A stretch of DNA of 4,794 bases from a virus (Duplodnaviria > Heunggongvirae > Uroviricota > Caudoviricetes): positions 1 to 4,794 of the IMG/VR virus record IMGVR_UViG_2648501669_000016; one strand, 5' to 3'. Shown one piece after another: positions 1 through 4,794 of this stretch. How positions within the stretch are numbered: the stretch's first letter is position 1; the number at the start of each line of letters is the position of its first letter. The notes beneath the pieces are model-generated. The model was not told where the DNA came from, did no database searches, and saw only the letters and a program-made list of their open reading frames with translations. Made by a program: the position numbers and the translations under genes.

Positions 1-14
1 GTTTACCATGTTCA

Positions 15-24
15 CCCCCCCCCC
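15..24. repeat. Homopolymeric C10 (plus) / G10 (minus) tract immediately 3' of the ssb stop codon
   Basis: Ten consecutive C at 15..24. On the minus strand this reads TGA-GGGGGGGGGG-TGAAC-ATG, where the ATG at 9..7 could start a further downstream minus-strand gene (only 3 codons, M-V-N, are inside the window). Confidence 0.9.
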
Positions 25-459
25 TCAGAATGGCGCTTCATCGTCGAATGGTGGGCGCTGGTCGTATTCATCACGGGTTGACTGCTGCGCACGTCTCAGC
101 GCGTCCGTCGCCTGTCCCCGCTGGCTATTTTTGCCTCCCTGTCGCACCGTTCGCGCACTGATTACGCTGTCTGCGATAACCTGCCAGCCCTGCCGCGTTT
201 CGCCGTTCTGGCCTGTCCACTGGTTCACCTGCATGTTACCCGCCACGCTCACAAGGTCGCCTTTGTGGTGCTTTGCCAGTGCGTCGGCCTGTCTGCCAAA
301 GGCAGTTACGGCAAGCCATAGCGTCGCCTGCCCGTCGTCTGCGTTATGGCACGGCACTGATACCGCCATGCGTGCCAGCGTCATGCTTGTGCCTTTGCTG
401 GTCTGTTTTACCTGCGGCTCGTCCACCAGCCGCCCGTATGCTGAAATTTGTGCTGTCAT
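25..459 (-). CDS. ssb: Single-stranded DNA-binding protein (SSB family, OB fold plus acidic C-terminal tail)
   Basis: The translation matches the SSB pattern: GRL..EP near the N-terminus, W-x-x-V-x-x-FG...KG..V.V.G.....WT.Q.G..R in the OB-fold core (LWLAVTAFGRQADALAKHHKGDLVSVAGNMQVNQWTGQNGETRQGW), and a C-terminal tail PPFDDEAPF resembling the canonical SSB tip DDDIPF. The stop codon is TGA at 27..25. The start is placed at ATG 459..457, which overlaps the upstream ORF stop as TAATG; an in-frame GTG at 468 is an alternative start (the ORF track runs 25..468). Confidence 0.8.
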   Translation of the reverse strand: MTAQISAYGRLVDEPQVKQTSKGTSMTLARMAVSVPCHNADDGQATLWLAVTAFGRQADALAKHHKGDLVSVAGNMQVNQWTGQNGETRQGWQVIADSVISARTVRQGGKNSQRGQATDALRRAQQSTRDEYDQRPPFDDEAPF

Positions 460-668
460 TAAGCGCACTCCATTCTTGATAACGTGTCGTCAATATTCCC
501 AGCGGCTCGTTTCAGGTAGTCCATGCTGTCATTTAGTCGGGATAATTCGCCAGCCAGTAACAAGGCCGCCGCCTCCTGCGCGGTGAACCCCTGCGCTTCA
601 ATCTCTCTAACAACTTCGATCTGCTTTTTATGATGTTCGTTCATTTTTTCGCCCTTTAGCTGAATCAT
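459..668 (-). CDS. Small hypothetical protein (61-69 aa) between the iteron region and ssb; function unknown
   Basis: An ORF on the same strand as ssb, with its stop TAA (461..459) overlapping the ssb ATG (TAATG), which suggests translational coupling. There are two candidate starts: ATG at 668 preceded by a G7 run, and ATG at 644 preceded by AAGGGCG with about 6 nt spacing. The translation (MNEHHKKQIEVVREIEAQGFTAQEAAALLLAGELSRLNDSMDYLKRAAGNIDDTLSRMECA) has no motif I can assign. Confidence 0.5.
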   Translation of the reverse strand: MIQLKGEKMNEHHKKQIEVVREIEAQGFTAQEAAALLLAGELSRLNDSMDYLKRAAGNIDDTLSRMECA

Positions 669-669
669 A

Positions 670-694
670 CCCCCCCTGTGAATCTTTTTGGGGG
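670..694. promoter_or_regulatory. C7 / G5 inverted repeat (potential hairpin) directly upstream of the small ORF start
   Basis: The plus strand has cccccccc at 670..676, a 13-nt spacer (tgtgaatcttttt) and ggggg at 690..694. On the minus-strand mRNA this would pair the G-rich stretch immediately 5' of the ATG at 668 with an upstream C-run. No U-tract follows on either strand, so it is not a classical intrinsic terminator. Confidence 0.3.
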
Positions 695-700
695 TGTAAT

Positions 701-946
701 ATCCCTACCAATCCCTACCAATCGATAAAACCCATATGTGGCGCGGCTTTCAGGCTGGTAGGGCATTGTTTTTCTACCCCTACTTATCCCTACCTATCCC
801 TACCAAATACCAAAAAACGGTTATGCGTGGCTTCTTGTTTAGTAGGGATATGTAGGGATATGTAGGGATAAATATATATATCCCTACCAGTCTACAAGCC
901 CCGTCATTACTGGCCTTAAATGACTTTGTAGGGATAGGTAGGGATA
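701..946. repeat. Iteron array; putative origin of replication (ori / cis replication region) of the element
   Basis: Direct-orientation ATCCCTACC copies at 701-709, 711-719, 786-794, 796-804 and 880-888, with a partial copy at 777-783. Inverted-orientation GTAGGGAT copies at 842-849, 852-859, 862-869, 928-935 and 938-945, with a degenerate ggtagggca at 757-765. The tandem copies are spaced 10 bp apart. An AT-rich aatatatata sits at 871-880 between inverted and direct copies. The block is non-coding and lies immediately 3' of the primase-helicase stop at 960-962. Confidence 0.75.
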
Positions 947-959
947 AATCAGGGGTAAA

Positions 960-3416
960 CTATTCATCACCCCCTTCGGCGGTGCTGCTGCCATATGCTC
1001 GCGGTATAAACTCCTCCGCCAACTCATTGATCCCAACGTTCGTCTGCGCTCTGCCGTTAATGCTGCGTGTCAGGTAGTTAGCCCTGTATTCTCTGGCGGC
1101 TGATTTAATCGCCCGTGAGAACTTGTTGACGGAAAGCGGCTTCCCTAGCCCGTGATATTCCATAAAGGCCAAATAAAGGTGATACAGGTAAGTTCTCGGC
1201 TCTGGCTGTCCTGCCCACGTTCCTCCCCCCATCATCATTCCCTTCGGCTCGTTCATAAAATACAAGGCCGCGCACATGTCTATGACCGGATCTGTCCCGC
1301 GCTTAACGCCCAACGCCTCTGCGGAATCGCGCTGCTCGATTAAAAGCGCTTTAGCTTTGTTCTGGTCGGCAAACATTGCCAGCAAGTGACGAATAATTAC
1401 CGGCATTTCACGGCAGATCTTCGCTGTCAGGTCGGGGTCTTTCTCCGCTTCTGATACCGGATTATCGAACGGGAATATCACACGGCGGCGGGCAATGCCC
1501 CCGTTGCGCTCGGTAAAGGTCATTGGTTCGTTGTTGGTTGCGAGAACAACGGCATTTAGCACGGTGGTGAACTGCTTTTCATACTTACCATCAATCTCTA
1601 CTGGGTCGCCGCCTGTAATGGCCTTTATCCCTGCGCCTTCGCCAACATAGCGGGTCTGGTCTGGCATGATAATCAGGCTTTTTCCTACAAGCTGCGCCCG
1701 CCCTCTGGCTGTGTCTAGCGCTCCCATGCTGGCGCTGGCTGTGTTGTGCTCACCTGCCAGTGATACGGCTATGCTGCTGAATACGGATTTCCCACTGCCG
1801 CCCTCGCCAGTTATCTCAATGAATAGCTGCCAGTCGTGACGCTTCGCCAGCACCATAAACAAGGCTGCTTTGATACGCTCGGCCTTATGATGGTCGCCAG
1901 CCGTTGCATGATTCAGCCAACGGGTAAAATTGGGGGCGCTGGTGGTAATATTTTCCCCCGGCGCTGGCGGGGTGTAGGTGATCCCATTGTGGTTCATCAG
2001 CCAGTTACCCGGCGAATGGGCGGAAAACGTCTGCGTAGCGAGGTCATAAACGCCGTTATCAAAACCAATCAGATCCCCGCTCCGCTCACCAATTACCGGT
2101 ATTTGCAGCTTCATGGTTGCGACAACCGATTTAATCCCCTTTTCGGTGTAGTGGGCTTCGTGCTCGTCGAAAATTGCCACCATAACCCTTTCTAATTCGC
2201 TGTCTGGTAGCTTCACCCATACGCCAGATTCGTAGCAGTAAACAGTGCCACTATCTGGGTTAACCGCCAACATATCCCATCGAGATGAAAGCAACCGCGC
2301 TTTCTGGCTGGCTGCCATTTGTGCAATATCTCCGACATCGGCTTTACGGCGGGATTTACCGCCAGCAATGGCCTGTAGTTGTGGTTTCACGCATTCCCCC
2401 TGCGGCCGGTACATCGAATCGTTAATCGCAGCCGTAGCGACTTCCAGCCCGTGTTGCTGGTGGTAGTCGTTCCAGTCAGCTTTGCTGTCAGTCGGTGGCA
2501 GCGATACCCAGCCAGCCACGGATAAAGCTGCTTTCTCTGCGGCCTCCTTCCCGATGTTGGTGGCTCCGGTTTCGGAGGCTGCTGTAGGGTGGTCGTTATC
2601 TGCGGCGATAATAATTTGCGACTGCGGGTATTTCCGGCGCATTACTCCGGCAACGTGGATCAGGTTCCCGGCGTCAATTGCTGCCACTGCCAGCGCGTCC
2701 GGGCGCATCAGGTGAACAGACAGAGCGGTAGCCAGCCCCTCGGCAATTAAAACGCTCTGCGGCGATTCTGGCGCGTTTACGGCGTGATATGCCCCGCGCT
2801 TTGCTGAACCTGTCAGGAGTCGCTTCTCTCCCTGCGGTGTAATGGTTTGCGCTGCTGCCACTGCGCCGGATTCGTCCACCAGCTCCAGCAATAACGAACC
2901 ATCCGGCATAACCGGATAGTTAAACCCGGTCAGCCCTTTTGATTGCAGGTAATCAGATTCGCCCTGTGTGGCACTCTGGCGCATTCCGGCATACAGATGG
3001 GCAAACGTAGCCCTTCGCTGCTCTGCGTCCTCTGCTGCCTGTTTCTGGCGCTCCTGCTCACGCTGCTGGCGGTCGGCTTCCAGTTGCTCTCTTCTATGGC
3101 TCGCTGCCGCCGGGTCGGTTTGCGCTGCCCGGTAATCAATACCCAGCACGTCAGCGGCAAGCTGTGCCGCCTCCGTGGTGTCGCAGTTGTTAACCCGCTT
3201 GATTAAATCCAGCCCGTCACCAGCGCCACACTGGTTGCAGATAAAGCTACCGCGCCCGTTGTCGTCGAATCTGAAACGGTCTTTTCCACCACATGCAGGG
3301 CAGGGAGCATGACGGCGCGGAGAGTCAGGGACATTTATGTTCAGGCAGCCCAGCACATGAGGCCAGTTGTTTTCAGACGCACTGATAACCTGACGGATAA
3401 GATCAATGTTTCGCAT
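960..3416 (-). CDS. Primase-helicase fusion protein (zinc ribbon + TOPRIM-type primase + SF3 / P4-alpha-type helicase); replication initiator of a mobile element
   Basis: An 818-819 aa ORF. A CxxC-17-CxxC zinc ribbon (CPACGG...CNQCGAG) is encoded around 3228..3302. The primase region carries the conserved glutamate motif IAEGLATA and the acidic motif IIAADNDH. The helicase region has Walker A GEGGSGKS (nt 1785..1808), a Walker-B-like LIIMPD and an SF3 motif-C-like VLATNN. A charged E/Q/R-rich linker lies between the zinc ribbon and the primase domain. The start is placed at ATG 3416..3414; an in-frame GTG at 3419 is one codon upstream (the ORF track runs 960..3419). Confidence 0.9.
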   Translation of the reverse strand: MRNIDLIRQVISASENNWPHVLGCLNINVPDSPRRHAPCPACGGKDRFRFDDNGRGSFICNQCGAGDGLDLIKRVNNCDTTEAAQLAADVLGIDYRAAQTDPAAASHRREQLEADRQQREQERQKQAAEDAEQRRATFAHLYAGMRQSATQGESDYLQSKGLTGFNYPVMPDGSLLLELVDESGAVAAAQTITPQGEKRLLTGSAKRGAYHAVNAPESPQSVLIAEGLATALSVHLMRPDALAVAAIDAGNLIHVAGVMRRKYPQSQIIIAADNDHPTAASETGATNIGKEAAEKAALSVAGWVSLPPTDSKADWNDYHQQHGLEVATAAINDSMYRPQGECVKPQLQAIAGGKSRRKADVGDIAQMAASQKARLLSSRWDMLAVNPDSGTVYCYESGVWVKLPDSELERVMVAIFDEHEAHYTEKGIKSVVATMKLQIPVIGERSGDLIGFDNGVYDLATQTFSAHSPGNWLMNHNGITYTPPAPGENITTSAPNFTRWLNHATAGDHHKAERIKAALFMVLAKRHDWQLFIEITGEGGSGKSVFSSIAVSLAGEHNTASASMGALDTARGRAQLVGKSLIIMPDQTRYVGEGAGIKAITGGDPVEIDGKYEKQFTTVLNAVVLATNNEPMTFTERNGGIARRRVIFPFDNPVSEAEKDPDLTAKICREMPVIIRHLLAMFADQNKAKALLIEQRDSAEALGVKRGTDPVIDMCAALYFMNEPKGMMMGGGTWAGQPEPRTYLYHLYLAFMEYHGLGKPLSVNKFSRAIKSAAREYRANYLTRSINGRAQTNVGINELAEEFIPRAYGSSTAEGGDE

Positions 3417-3774
3417 CACCGTACCCCACGTGGTCTATAGCGTTTGCGATATGGCTAACCAGCATCTGCCACTTGGTTATTCCGTAATCAGTCAGCATGC
3501 CATCATTGTTTAGCCACATATCAAATTCAGCGGTTGTCGCAAGTTTCCACTTATCGCCGTGGACAGTCCTCATTGCTGGGTACATGAATGCGCAAATCAG
3601 ATCACAAACATCTGACGGCTTCAGAGATGTAGTAATGGTGCGTCCCTCTGGCGTCTGAATTGCCATTTTCTCTTCACCAGTAGAATGAAGGTTATGAATC
3701 CACACAGCACCAGCAATCTTTGCCACCTGCTCTCCGATTGCGGAGCTAAGCGCCATTTCTACATTTTCACGCAT
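3403..3774 (-). CDS. Hypothetical protein (123 aa), translationally coupled to the primase-helicase gene
   Basis: The ATG at 3774 is preceded by a strong SD (GGGAGG, 5 nt spacer). The stop at 3405..3403 overlaps the primase start by 14 nt. Same strand as its neighbours, no gaps. I recognise no motif. Confidence 0.6.
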   Translation of the reverse strand: MRENVEMALSSAIGEQVAKIAGAVWIHNLHSTGEEKMAIQTPEGRTITTSLKPSDVCDLICAFMYPAMRTVHGDKWKLATTAEFDMWLNNDGMLTDYGITKWQMLVSHIANAIDHVGYGDAKH

Positions 3775-4108
3775 GAGAACCTCCCGCTACAGTTGCGCCC
3801 ATGTCATTAACCATGCTTTGCCATATCTCACGCCCGACGTCAGTCAATCTGTCCTTAGTGACGCAACGATCAAGAAGCTCGATCCCCACGGTTTCCCACT
3901 GCGGGTAGAACACTTTCATGGCTGCCAGTGTGTAGCTATCGATCAGGCTGCGAACGCCTTTTACTCCATTGACGATTTCCACACGGACGGCCTCTCCGTC
4001 CGCATCAATCATGAAATAGTCCCCGCCGCTGGTGGAGGTAATGTGGTTATACAGTGCTGACGCATACTTATTTGCCAGCGCATTCAGTCGGAAATTTTTA
4101 GTAATCAT
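3767..4108 (-). CDS. Hypothetical protein (113 aa)
   Basis: The ATG at 4108 is preceded by GGATGGAGCC, containing a GGAG SD. Its last codons (..GGSHA, nt GGGAGGTTCTCATGCGTGA) encode the SD and start of the next gene, with an 8-nt overlap ATGCGTGA. I recognise no motif. Confidence 0.6.
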   Translation of the reverse strand: MITKNFRLNALANKYASALYNHITSTSGGDYFMIDADGEAVRVEIVNGVKGVRSLIDSYTLAAMKVFYPQWETVGIELLDRCVTKDRLTDVGREIWQSMVNDMGATVAGGSHA

Positions 4109-4118
4109 GGCTCCATCC

Positions 4119-4721
4119 TCAGTGCGTCACTGGTTCCGCTGGCATGCCGTTTTCATTCAGTTCAGCTATAAAGCTGTTGTGAAGTTCAGCAAGCGTTTCA
4201 CGACCAAATGGAGTCAGTGCTCCTTGTTCCACATCCATCATGGCTCTGTAGAAAATGATGGCGCGTTCTGTGCCAGACTCGATGCCAAAACGTTCTATCA
4301 TCGCGCCCTCAATGTTGTTTGCCATAGCGAGGCGCTCTGCTACTGGATACAGCGACATGGCGACGATGCCGTTGGAATAAACAGCCACTTCGGAAGGATT
4401 GCCAGTATCATCAATGATGCTGACAGTGCCGTTTTCCTTTCTCATTTCATTGATGAATGCTGTTGCTATCAGCCAGCGCCACATAATCACGTGATGCTGT
4501 GATGTGTAATCGAAATATCCCTGGTTGCCGCCACTGGCAATAGCGAGATGTATAAACATGCCTTCATCTGGTTTATCGTCATAATCCCCGGCATCCAGAC
4601 GATTTACGGCATCAATATATGAGACGGTCTCAACGCGTTCTGTCATGCCATCGTTGCTGCGGTACATGATGTTTACGCCGTCAGGCGTTGCTTCTGCATG
4701 GAAAGTTAAGAAATTATTCAT
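4119..4721 (-). CDS. Hypothetical protein (200 aa from ATG 4721; 211 aa if started at ATG 4754)
   Basis: A long minus-strand ORF. The ATG at 4721 has a GAGG SD 6 nt upstream and overlaps the stop of the upstream partial ORF (ATGAATAA), so I prefer it as the start. The ATG at 4754 is in frame but lacks an obvious SD. The stop TGA at 4121..4119 lies 10 nt before the next start. Function unknown. Confidence 0.6.
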   Translation of the reverse strand: MNNFLTFHAEATPDGVNIMYRSNDGMTERVETVSYIDAVNRLDAGDYDDKPDEGMFIHLAIASGGNQGYFDYTSQHHVIMWRWLIATAFINEMRKENGTVSIIDDTGNPSEVAVYSNGIVAMSLYPVAERLAMANNIEGAMIERFGIESGTERAIIFYRAMMDVEQGALTPFGRETLAELHNSFIAELNENGMPAEPVTH

Positions 4722-4794
4722 GTTTCGCCTCGCCTGAATGATTCTGTAACTCATATTTGCCCAACAATTCGTCCGCTTCCTGAATAGCTTCTGG
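4714..4794 (-). CDS. 3' end of an upstream gene running in from beyond the window edge (partial; C-terminus ..PEAIQEADELLGKYELQNHSGEAKHE)
   Basis: An open frame with no stop runs from the window edge at 4794 to TAA at 4716..4714, and that stop overlaps the downstream ATG at 4721. Only 26 codons are visible, so coding status rests on frame continuity and the coupling geometry. Confidence 0.35.
   Translation of the reverse strand, partial: PEAIQEADELLGKYELQNHSGEAKHE

What the first reader, a model, noticed from the sequence alone, without database searches (positions are those of the whole stretch)
25..468. Element-encoded SSB with a variant acidic tail (FDDEAPF), positioned downstream of the origin
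The OB-fold core is clearly SSB-like, but the C-terminal tip differs from the canonical DDDIPF and the protein is short (about 144 aa), with a brief linker. In SSB proteins the C-terminal tip mediates interactions with host replication and repair partners, so a variant tip on a mobile-element SSB could alter or compete for those interactions. Its position directly after the ori, coupled to a small unknown ORF, suggests a dedicated ori-primase-accessory-SSB replication cluster.
Basis: partly seen in the sequence, partly recalled or inferred. Interest (0 to 1): 0.4.

Follow-up and report, generated by a model that had tools for sequence, protein, structure and literature searches.

The report
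Phage-satellite island SSB gene, already annotated
This is an ordinary, intact single-stranded-DNA-binding protein gene in the replication module (primase, origin, SSB) of a phage-inducible chromosomal island of E. coli; its "variant" tail keeps the residues known to matter and is one of many tail versions in a common, already annotated family.

Summary
Window 25-459 (minus strand) encodes a 144-aa SSB that passes the Pfam and NCBIfam cut-offs. It has a confident OB-fold model, a 33-residue linker and the tip FDDEAPF. It lies downstream of a P4-family primase-helicase and a 10-bp-phased iteron origin, and overlaps a 69-aa ORF by one base (TAATG).

The window is 99.98% identical to an E. coli assembly. 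There it sits in a ~12-kb island (int-alpA-antA-icd/ash-pri-ori-ssb-perC) with Gram-negative PICI architecture. The prototype PICI EcCICFT073 has the same pri-ori-small ORF-ssb-perC order, and its SSB is 65% identical.

Relatives of the gene occur in 1804 of 5426 complete E. coli genomes, annotated as SSB. One paper already places SSB in the PICI replication category.

The tail is not special:
- In 164 distinct family members, Pro-2, Phe-1, Asp-5 and the aromatic at -7 are over 90% conserved.
- Positions -3 and -4 vary freely, and the window's tip is among the most acidic.
- The same tips occur with unrelated initiator proteins, which points to host partners.

The small ORF is a swappable slot, not a conserved accessory.

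Verdict: already known, low interest. One minor new point is a conserved linker motif, GQATDALxRAxQ.

The parts
25..459 (-). ssb coding sequence: 144 codons plus TGA stop at 25-27.
   Evidence: The exact protein is on record on 9 public contigs.
151..459 (-). OB-fold core, codons 1-103. W48, F54 and W81 correspond to E. coli W54, F60 and W88. Cys37 is invariant in the family and sits at the W40 position.
52..150 (-). Linker, codons 104-136. It is charged and polar, and predicted disordered with pLDDT below 50.
88..117 (-). Conserved linker motif GQATDALRRA, codons 115-124. The family consensus is RPGGKxGQQGQATDALxRAxQ.
   Evidence: Present in 136 of 164 distinct family sequences. Each position is 81-93% conserved, and up to 4 synonymous codons are used at a position. 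AF2 draws a helix at 117-126, but at low confidence.
28..48 (-). C-terminal tip FDDEAPF, codons 138-144.
459..668 (-). 69-aa ORF of unknown function in a variable slot. Its TAA stop (459-461) overlaps the ssb ATG by one base.
   Evidence: No Pfam, PHROG, NCBIfam or PADLOC match.
699..949 (.). Replication-origin-like iteron field: TCCCTAC-type 10-bp repeats in opposed sets around an AT-rich stretch at about 869-880.
   Evidence: It has the organisation described for PICI origins (PMC6092414).
960..3416 (-). P4-family primase-helicase, 818 aa from the ATG. Domains: Zn ribbon, Toprim, D5_N, DUF5906 and Pox_D5.
1..10 (-). Start of the downstream PerC-family gene, with its ATG at 8-10. It is preceded by a G10 run (window 15-24) that begins immediately after the ssb stop (25-27).

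Best explanation
The gene encodes the SSB of the replication module of a Gram-negative phage-inducible chromosomal island (PICI) of E. coli.

Inferred mechanism: after helper-phage induction, the unidirectional island operon is transcribed. The P4-type primase-helicase binds the iterons, opens the AT-rich centre, unwinds and primes. The co-transcribed SSB coats the exposed single strands through its OB fold (W48, F54, W81). Its disordered tail ends in Pro-Phe with three acidic residues, and presents the same kind of tip as host SSB to host SSB-binding proteins such as the Pol III chi subunit, PriA and RecO. It therefore adds SSB capacity when island and helper replicate together. The E/A changes at positions -4 and -3 are expected to be neutral or only modulatory.

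Shown here:
- SSB family membership and fold.
- Intactness and purifying selection.
- Position in a conserved pri-ori-ssb module.
- PICI context.
- The conservation pattern of the tip.

Inferred, not shown:
- ssDNA binding.
- Oligomeric state.
- Partner binding.
- Contribution to island replication.
For: - SSB HMMs score above their curated cut-offs. The OB-fold model is confident and matches only bacterial SSBs. Three of the four E. coli stacking aromatics are kept.
- No terminator-like site was found between the primase gene and ssb, and ssb overlaps the upstream ORF.
- The window is 99.98% identical to an E. coli contig carrying int-AlpA-AntA-DUF4222-(Ash)-...-primase-69aa-SSB-PerC-...-PRiA4_ORF3.
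- EcCICFT073 has pri-ori-85aa-SSB-PerC-capsid, and its SSB is 65% identical.
- A large ORF ends 180-1404 nt upstream of ssb in 89 of 96 loci.
- The literature places SSB with primase and ori in the PICI 'Replication' category (PMC10111431). It describes the two-iteron-set origin (PMC6092414).
- Tip conservation in 164 distinct sequences: F-1 95%, P-2 91%, D-5 94%, aromatic -7 96%; I-3 72% with A 9% and T 9%.
- In RecO/SSB-Ct only Pro176 and Phe177 are ordered, Ile175 is poorly ordered, and all three Asp must be replaced to weaken binding (PMC3152348).
- The same tips occur with at least four dissimilar initiator clusters, which points to a common host partner.
- Synonymous codon diversity at conserved residues shows protein-level selection.
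Against: - In EcCICFT073 a cloned rep (pri-rep) gene plus ori segment drives plasmid replication in DH5alpha, which carries host SSB (PMC6092414). The paper does not mention ssb at all, so whether that construct carried it is not stated. The island SSB may therefore be dispensable for basic replication.
- No experiment on any PICI SSB was found in the searched literature.
- Trp40 and His55 equivalents are absent, so binding mode and tetramer stability may differ from E. coli SSB.
- Most family tips carry only 1-2 acidic residues, so affinity for host partners could be lower than for host SSB.
Confidence: 0.7

Rival explanations
1. The tail, or the conserved linker motif, is a dedicated adaptor for the island's own primase-helicase rather than for host proteins. 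It would work like T7 gp2.5 or the MGE PolA-SSB pairs.
For: - ssb is tightly linked to the initiator gene.
- The linker motif GQATDALxRAxQ is conserved at protein level, which is unusual for SSB linkers.
- There is a precedent: MGE SSBs whose variable C-terminal tails are predicted to bind element-encoded primases (PMC10061031).
Against: - The same tips (QWGDDIPF, PYGDNIPF, FDDE[AT]PF) are found next to several dissimilar initiator clusters. Two of these clusters have no detectable similarity to the window's primase. The linker motif accompanies most tips of each of these types.
- The tip keeps the host-type P-F signature.
Confidence: 0.15
2. The SSB acts mainly as a competitor or modulator. 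It would sequester host SSB-interacting proteins, interfere with or assist helper-phage replication, or interact with defence systems that sense foreign SSBs.
For: - Any extra SSB with a P-F tip will compete for partners.
- Most family tips are less acidic than DDDIPF.
- A cloned rep (pri-rep) plus ori segment drives replication in EcCICFT073, and the paper makes no mention of ssb.
- Non-host SSBs are established triggers of Retron-Eco8 and DARNA.
- The clade has no close relative in 50,697 phage records, the best being under 34% identical. It is therefore satellite-specific.
Against: - There is no direct evidence.
- ssb sits in the replication module next to ori across many island types, not in the variable accessory region.
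- No PADLOC match was found.
- The tip residues critical for productive binding are conserved.
Confidence: 0.1
3. The gene is a decaying or non-functional SSB remnant.
For: It is short, only 23% identical to host SSB, and lacks the Trp40 equivalent.
Against: - The gene is intact in 93 of 96 loci. Two are truncated and one has a different end.
- Core, linker motif and tip are strongly conserved at the amino-acid level, with synonymous variation.
- It is present in a third of complete E. coli genomes.
Confidence: 0.02

Closest known systems
SSB of the prototype Gram-negative PICI EcCICFT073 (WP_000126698.1, E. coli CFT073, between roxA and phoQ)
   Same: - 65% identical overall and about 85% in the OB core.
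- Same position: primase, iteron origin, small overlapping ORF, ssb, perC.
- Same start, MTAQI.
- Tip ends DDIPF.

   Different: - It is 136 aa.
- Its linker lacks the GQATDAL motif, and its tip is PYGDDIPF.
- The neighbouring initiator is a 584-aa protein with different iterons (GTCTACC type).
- The small ORF is an unrelated 85-aa protein.

E. coli chromosomal SSB (PDB 1eqq/4mz9)
   Same: OB fold, the W54/F60/W88 equivalents, a disordered linker, and an acidic tip ending Pro-Phe preceded by an aromatic at -7.
   Different: - Only 23% identical.
- Linker of 33 rather than about 56 residues, charged rather than Gly/Gln/Pro-rich.
- Cys replaces Trp40 and Leu replaces His55.
- Tip is FDDEAPF rather than FDDDIPF.
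Conjugative-plasmid SSBs (F-type leading-region Ssb)
   Same: An element-encoded extra SSB with a host-like tip (own knowledge).
   Different: This clade is not the plasmid family. Only 29 of 72,556 plasmid records have a tblastn match at E <= 1e-5, and most of those are small non-mobilizable records. Here the gene sits in a satellite replication module, not in a conjugative leading region.
Satellite phage P4 replication system (alpha primase-helicase with ori)
   Same: The initiator has the same domain type: Zn ribbon, Toprim, D5_N and P4-family C-terminal helicase.
   Different: P4 is not known to encode an SSB (own knowledge). No Psu, Sid or Delta-type Pfam hits are seen in the full island.
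T7 gp2.5 and MGE PolA-SSB pairs
   Same: A working analogy: an element SSB whose C-terminal tail recruits replication proteins (PMC10061031; T7 from own knowledge).
   Different: There is no sequence relationship to gp2.5. Here the tip resembles the host SSB tip and does not co-vary with the element's initiator.

Membership tests
Bacterial SSB family (Pfam PF00436 / TIGR00621) | OB-fold domain scoring above the curated HMM thresholds | tested here: met
   PF00436 62.7 bits against 26; TIGR00621 62.4 bits against 53.95. The AF2 core has pLDDT around 90, and the top Foldseek hits are all SSBs.
Bacterial SSB family (Pfam PF00436 / TIGR00621) | Aromatic ssDNA-stacking residues (E. coli W40, W54, F60, W88) | tested here: met
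   Three of the four are kept (W48, F54, W81) and are invariant in the family. W40 is replaced by an invariant Cys37.
Bacterial SSB family (Pfam PF00436 / TIGR00621) | Disordered linker followed by an acidic tip ending Pro-Phe | tested here: met
   Residues 104-144 have pLDDT below 50. The tip is PPFDDEAPF. In the family, P-2 is 91% and F-1 95% conserved.
Bacterial SSB family (Pfam PF00436 / TIGR00621) | Homotetramer that binds ssDNA | not testable with these tools
   Only a monomer model could be made. The His55 equivalent is Leu.
Gram-negative PICI (EcCICFT073 type) | Integrase at one end, with alpA and nearly all genes transcribed in one direction | tested here: met
   In the full copies L097-L100, int, an AlpA-family gene and the rest are on one strand. 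The same holds in L001, L002 and L014.
Gram-negative PICI (EcCICFT073 type) | A pri(-rep) gene followed by an origin with two iteron sets flanking an AT-rich region | tested here: met
   The definition is in PMC6092414.
Gram-negative PICI (EcCICFT073 type) | Small size (about 10-15 kb) and no full set of phage structural or lysis genes | tested here: met
   The island spans about 12 kb from int to the PRiA4_ORF3 region, with no structural or lysis Pfam hits among the called genes.
Gram-negative PICI (EcCICFT073 type) | Induction, packaging and transfer by a helper phage | not testable with these tools
   This needs experiments. This island variant lacks recognisable capsid or terminase genes, so its packaging route is unknown.
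P4-like satellites | Psu, Sid and Delta capsid-size and late-control genes alongside the alpha primase | tested here: not met
   The precomputed Pfam lists for L097-L100 show none of these. Only the alpha-like primase domains are shared. The Pfam lists are precomputed and may be incomplete.

The most novel reading that the evidence does not exclude
The enterobacterial PICI SSB subfamily is not just spare SSB. It has three family-specific features: a selected linker peptide (RPGGKxGQQGQATDALxRAxQ), a weakly acidic and freely exchangeable tip module, and Cys in place of Trp40. On this reading these features make it a specialised adaptor that redirects part of the host SSB interactome, or a helper-phage factor, to the satellite replisome, or that evades or engages SSB-sensing defences. 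With one or more copies in about a third of E. coli genomes, it would be a hidden variable in SSB biology.
Probability: 0.12. Interest if true: 0.5.

Novelty: already known. Interest (0 to 1): 0.15.

Why it matters
It matters little as a discovery. The exact protein is already in public assemblies. Its relatives are annotated as SSB in thousands of genomes. The primase-ori-SSB arrangement is present in the prototype PICI and has been noted in print.

It is useful as a reminder of two things:
- About one third of complete E. coli genomes carry one or more satellite-encoded SSB paralogues with host-like P-F tips, whose function has never been tested.
- The tail and OB-core parts of these genes recombine as separate modules.

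Tried and rejected
1. **Tip tailored to the island's own primase.** I clustered the upstream initiator ORFs of 96 loci. The same tips occur with several dissimilar initiators, so this was rejected as the main explanation.
2. **Small ORF as a conserved accessory partner.** It is rare and is replaced by unrelated ORFs. No family or defence-system match was found.
3. **DNA-level element explaining the near-identical 3' end of ssb.** Across 58 distinct genes the conserved residues use up to 4 synonymous codons. Conservation is therefore at protein level. The local near-identity to L001/L002 is recombinational mosaicism.
4. **Rfam scan of the window.** It gave only sub-threshold chance hits on the palindromic iterons.
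5. **Phage origin.** No phage record has a relative above 34% identity.
6. **Conjugative-plasmid SSB family.** Only 29 plasmid records match.
7. **Source search in GTDB representative genomes.** It found only 54-67% identical relatives, and was biased by the use of PFDDEAPF as a search pattern. The exact-sequence look-up did find the source.
8. **First guess at EcCICFT073 coordinates.** It landed on a lambdoid prophage and was corrected.
9. **The search for homologous proteins.** It did not list the exact protein, with best hits at 81-83% identity, although the protein is on record.

Full report
**Observation.** The window carries a run of minus-strand genes:
- Three small ORFs at 4119-4754, 3767-4108 and 3403-3774.
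- An 818/819-aa primase-helicase at 960-3416/3419.
- A 290-bp non-coding stretch.
- A 69-aa ORF at 459-668.

The ATG at 459 is the real start, because every relative begins ATGACAGCA (MTAQ) exactly there, and a GGAG lies 8 nt upstream. The product is 144 aa and ends DQRPPFDDEAPF. The stop of the 69-aa ORF overlaps the ATG by one base (TAATG).

**Is it an SSB?** Yes.
- Pfam SSB scores 62.7 bits (cut-off 26).
- TIGR00621 scores 62.4 bits (cut-off 53.95).
- PHROG 44 gives E = 1.8e-37.
- An AlphaFold2 model built on 115 sequences gives a beta-barrel core at residues 1-103 with block pLDDT 86-96. The C-terminal 41 residues are disordered, with a low-confidence helix at 117-126.
- All 50 listed Foldseek matches in the PDB are bacterial SSBs.
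- By sequence, the nearest solved structures are Thermus, Thermotoga and Deinococcus SSBs (E about 1e-10), ahead of E. coli SSB (1e-5).

Against E. coli SSB the protein is 23% identical. I verified that the comparison sequence equals PDB 1eqq_A. The protein keeps the equivalents of Trp54, Phe60 and Trp88. It has Cys37 where E. coli has Trp40, and Leu49 where E. coli has His55. These residues are invariant in the family.

**Origin.**
- TCCCTAC occurs exactly 10 times in the window, all between 702 and 944, on both strands and in 10-bp phase. The chance expectation is 0.26.
- GC drops to 0.38-0.40 there, and an ATAAATATATATAT stretch lies between opposed iteron sets.
- This matches the PICI origin described by Fillol-Salom et al. 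[quoted passage not shown]
- No terminator-like site separates the primase gene from ssb.

**What the element is.** The exact 144-aa protein is on record on 9 public contigs.
- The window is 99.98% identical to one of them (GCA_018561575.1), differing by a single one-base length change in a homopolymer. That contig's flanks are 99.9-100% identical to E. coli chromosomes.
- The full island is about 12 kb and almost entirely unidirectional. Its order is: integrase, hypothetical, AlpA-family regulator, hypothetical, AntA antirepressor, DUF4222, (Ash/Icd-like), several small ORFs, primase-helicase, origin, 69-aa ORF, SSB, PerC-family regulator, and further genes ending near a PRiA4_ORF3 gene.
- In different strains it sits beside yicC or at other sites. 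This is Gram-negative PICI architecture.
- I located the prototype EcCICFT073 in CFT073. Its order is int, HTH/AlpA, Icd-like, DUF4222, primase (584 aa), a gap with GTCTACC-type iterons, an 85-aa ORF, SSB (136 aa), PerC, then the capsid and head-decoration genes c1499 and c1500 named in the paper.
- Its SSB is 65% identical to the window's.
- Mageeney et al. [quoted passage not shown]

**How common.**
- A blastn match to the ssb gene is present in 1804 of 5426 complete E. coli genomes, with up to 6 places per genome. 2348 of 2350 places are chromosomal, and the rows shown are annotated 'single-stranded DNA-binding protein'.
- 513 IMG/VR contigs encode a relative.
- Relatives occur in Leclercia, Buttiauxella, Atlantibacter, Shimwellia, Enterobacter and Budvicia.
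- No deposited phage genome has a relative above 34% identity.
- Only 29 of 72,556 plasmid records match.
- In the library of 50%-identity representatives, 9 clusters match at E <= 1e-30 and 315 at E <= 1e-10.

It is therefore a compact clade of short SSBs, found mainly on chromosomal islands of this kind.

**The tail.** I analysed 164 distinct full-length family members.

| Position | Residue | Share |
|---|---|---|
| -1 | Phe | 95% |
| -2 | Pro | 91% |
| -5 | Asp | 94% |
| -7 | Tyr/Phe/Trp | 96% |
| -8 | Pro | 77% |
| -3 | Ile | 72% (Ala 9%, Thr 9%) |
| -4 | Asn/Asp/Glu/Gly | variable |

- The commonest tips are YGDNIPF (47), WGDDIPF (25), FDDETPF (12), YGDGIPF (12) and FDDEAPF (10).
- With three acidic residues in its last eight, the window's tip is in the most acidic third of the family.
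- It differs from the FDDETPF of its nearest E. coli relatives by a single ACG to GCG change.
- FDDEAPF recurs in several genera, although that search was partly seeded with this peptide.
- More distant short SSBs (35-56% identical) carry FDDAIPF, FDDPIPF, FDDELPF and similar tips.
- In the RecO/SSB-Ct crystal structure only Pro176 and Phe177 are ordered in the pocket. Ile175 is poorly ordered and the acidic residues are disordered. All three Asp must be replaced to match the effect of a single Pro176 or Phe177 mutation (PMC3152348).

By that standard FDDEAPF keeps what matters.

**Does the tail address the island's own initiator?** I extracted the large upstream ORF from 96 loci.
- 89 loci have one ending 180-1404 nt before ssb.
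- These ORFs fall into at least six recurrent clusters at 60% identity. Two of the clusters have no BLAST hit to the window's primase.
- QWGDDIPF occurs with clusters 0, 1 and 6. PYGDNIPF occurs with 0, 1, 3 and 5. FDDE[AT]PF occurs with 1, 2, 4 and 8.

Tips are thus not tied to initiator type. That favours a shared partner, either host proteins or the SSB itself. The sample is redundant and not phylogenetically corrected, so this is suggestive only.

**The small ORF.**
- The 69-aa ORF is found upstream of ssb in only 3 of the 96 loci analysed, one of which is the window itself. It also precedes ssb in the four near-identical copies retrieved later (L097-L100). It occurs in 1 of 5426 complete E. 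coli genomes.
- 73 of 96 loci have the EcCICFT073-type 85-aa ORF. Others have 100-, 142- or 39-aa ORFs, or none.
- These proteins show no BLAST similarity to each other and no family matches.
- The position between ori and ssb is therefore a variable slot with a recombination boundary at the conserved ssb start. It is not a fixed accessory subunit.

**Mosaicism.** The table gives nucleotide identity of window segments to two related loci.

| Segment | vs L001 | vs EcCICFT073 (L016) |
|---|---|---|
| Primase 3' half | 99.7% | 67.6% over 487 nt |
| Origin | 83% | no match |
| Small ORF | no match | no match |
| ssb OB part | 74% | 80.5% |
| ssb linker/tail | 95% | no match |

The OB core and the C-terminal module of this gene have separate histories.

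The first half of the linker is conserved: RPGGKxGQQGQATDALxRAxQ, present in 136 of 164 distinct sequences.
- Each position is 81-93% identical, and up to four synonymous codons are used at a position. This is selection on the peptide, not on the DNA.
- SSB linkers are usually not conserved in sequence (own knowledge).
- The EcCICFT073 SSB lacks the motif.
- Its role is unknown. It could be a second interaction site.

**Mechanism and confidence.** The best-supported reading (0.7) is a replication-module SSB. It coats ssDNA generated at the island origin by the P4-type primase-helicase, and couples to host SSB-binding proteins through a host-like P-F tip.

The main caveat concerns EcCICFT073. 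There, a cloned rep plus ori segment replicates a plasmid in a host with its own SSB. The island SSB is therefore probably a booster rather than essential.

The rivals are:
- An adaptor for the island initiator (0.15).
- A competitor, helper modulator or defence-related role (0.1). Foreign SSBs are known triggers of Retron-Eco8 and DARNA.
- A non-functional remnant (0.02).

**Novelty.** The finding is already known. The exact protein is in public assemblies, relatives are annotated as SSB, the module order is that of the prototype PICI, and the association has been noted in the literature. No functional study of a PICI SSB was found. The open question is experimental, not one of recognition. 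Interest is 0.15.

Noticed in passing
window 670-676 and 15-24: Two homopolymer runs act as Shine-Dalgarno-like elements. One is G7 on the coding strand before the 69-aa ORF. The other is G10 between the ssb stop and the perC ATG. Their lengths differ between near-identical island copies: G8 in L100 for the first, G9 in L097-L099 for the second. This could be slippage that tunes translation, or assembly error.
   Followed up: partly
window 88-117 (ssb codons 115-124): The linker motif GQATDALRRA belongs to the family consensus RPGGKxGQQGQATDALxRAxQ. It is conserved in 136 of 164 distinct relatives with synonymous codon diversity, and it is absent from the EcCICFT073 SSB. It may be a second interaction site in a region that is normally unconserved in SSBs.
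   Followed up: partly
window 25-459 compared with L001, L002 and L016: ssb shows recombination within the gene. The tail/linker DNA is 94-95% identical to L001 and L002, while the OB part is 73-74% identical. The OB part is closest (80.5%) to the EcCICFT073 gene, whose tail is unrelated.
   Followed up: yes
window 349-351 (Cys37) and 313-315 (Leu49): A Cys that is invariant in the family occupies the position of E. coli SSB Trp40, preceded by an invariant Pro. An invariant Leu occupies the position of His55, the ssb-1 tetramer-stability residue. Binding mode or oligomer stability may therefore differ from E. coli SSB.
   Followed up: no
window 459-668: The 69-aa ORF in the slot between ori and ssb is rare: 1 of 5426 complete E. 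coli genomes, plus Shimwellia. It has no family match. Other islands carry unrelated ORFs in the same slot, and the slot may be a hotspot for accessory genes.
   Followed up: partly
window 3403-3774: The 123-aa ORF just upstream of the primase is present in the window and in L100, and a 54%-identical relative lies in L010. It is absent from the otherwise about 99% identical copies L097-L099. This is an indel of one small gene within the island.
   Followed up: no
L003 (CACSKA010000004.1): A contig labelled Chryseobacterium sp. 18061 carries an enterobacterial-type island with primase and an SSB ending FDDEAPF. It is probably a contaminant or a mislabelled assembly.
   Followed up: no
window 25-459 (database behaviour): The word-indexed homologue search listed nothing above 83% identity. 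The exact protein is nonetheless on record on 9 contigs. Absence from that list is therefore not evidence of novelty.
   Followed up: yes
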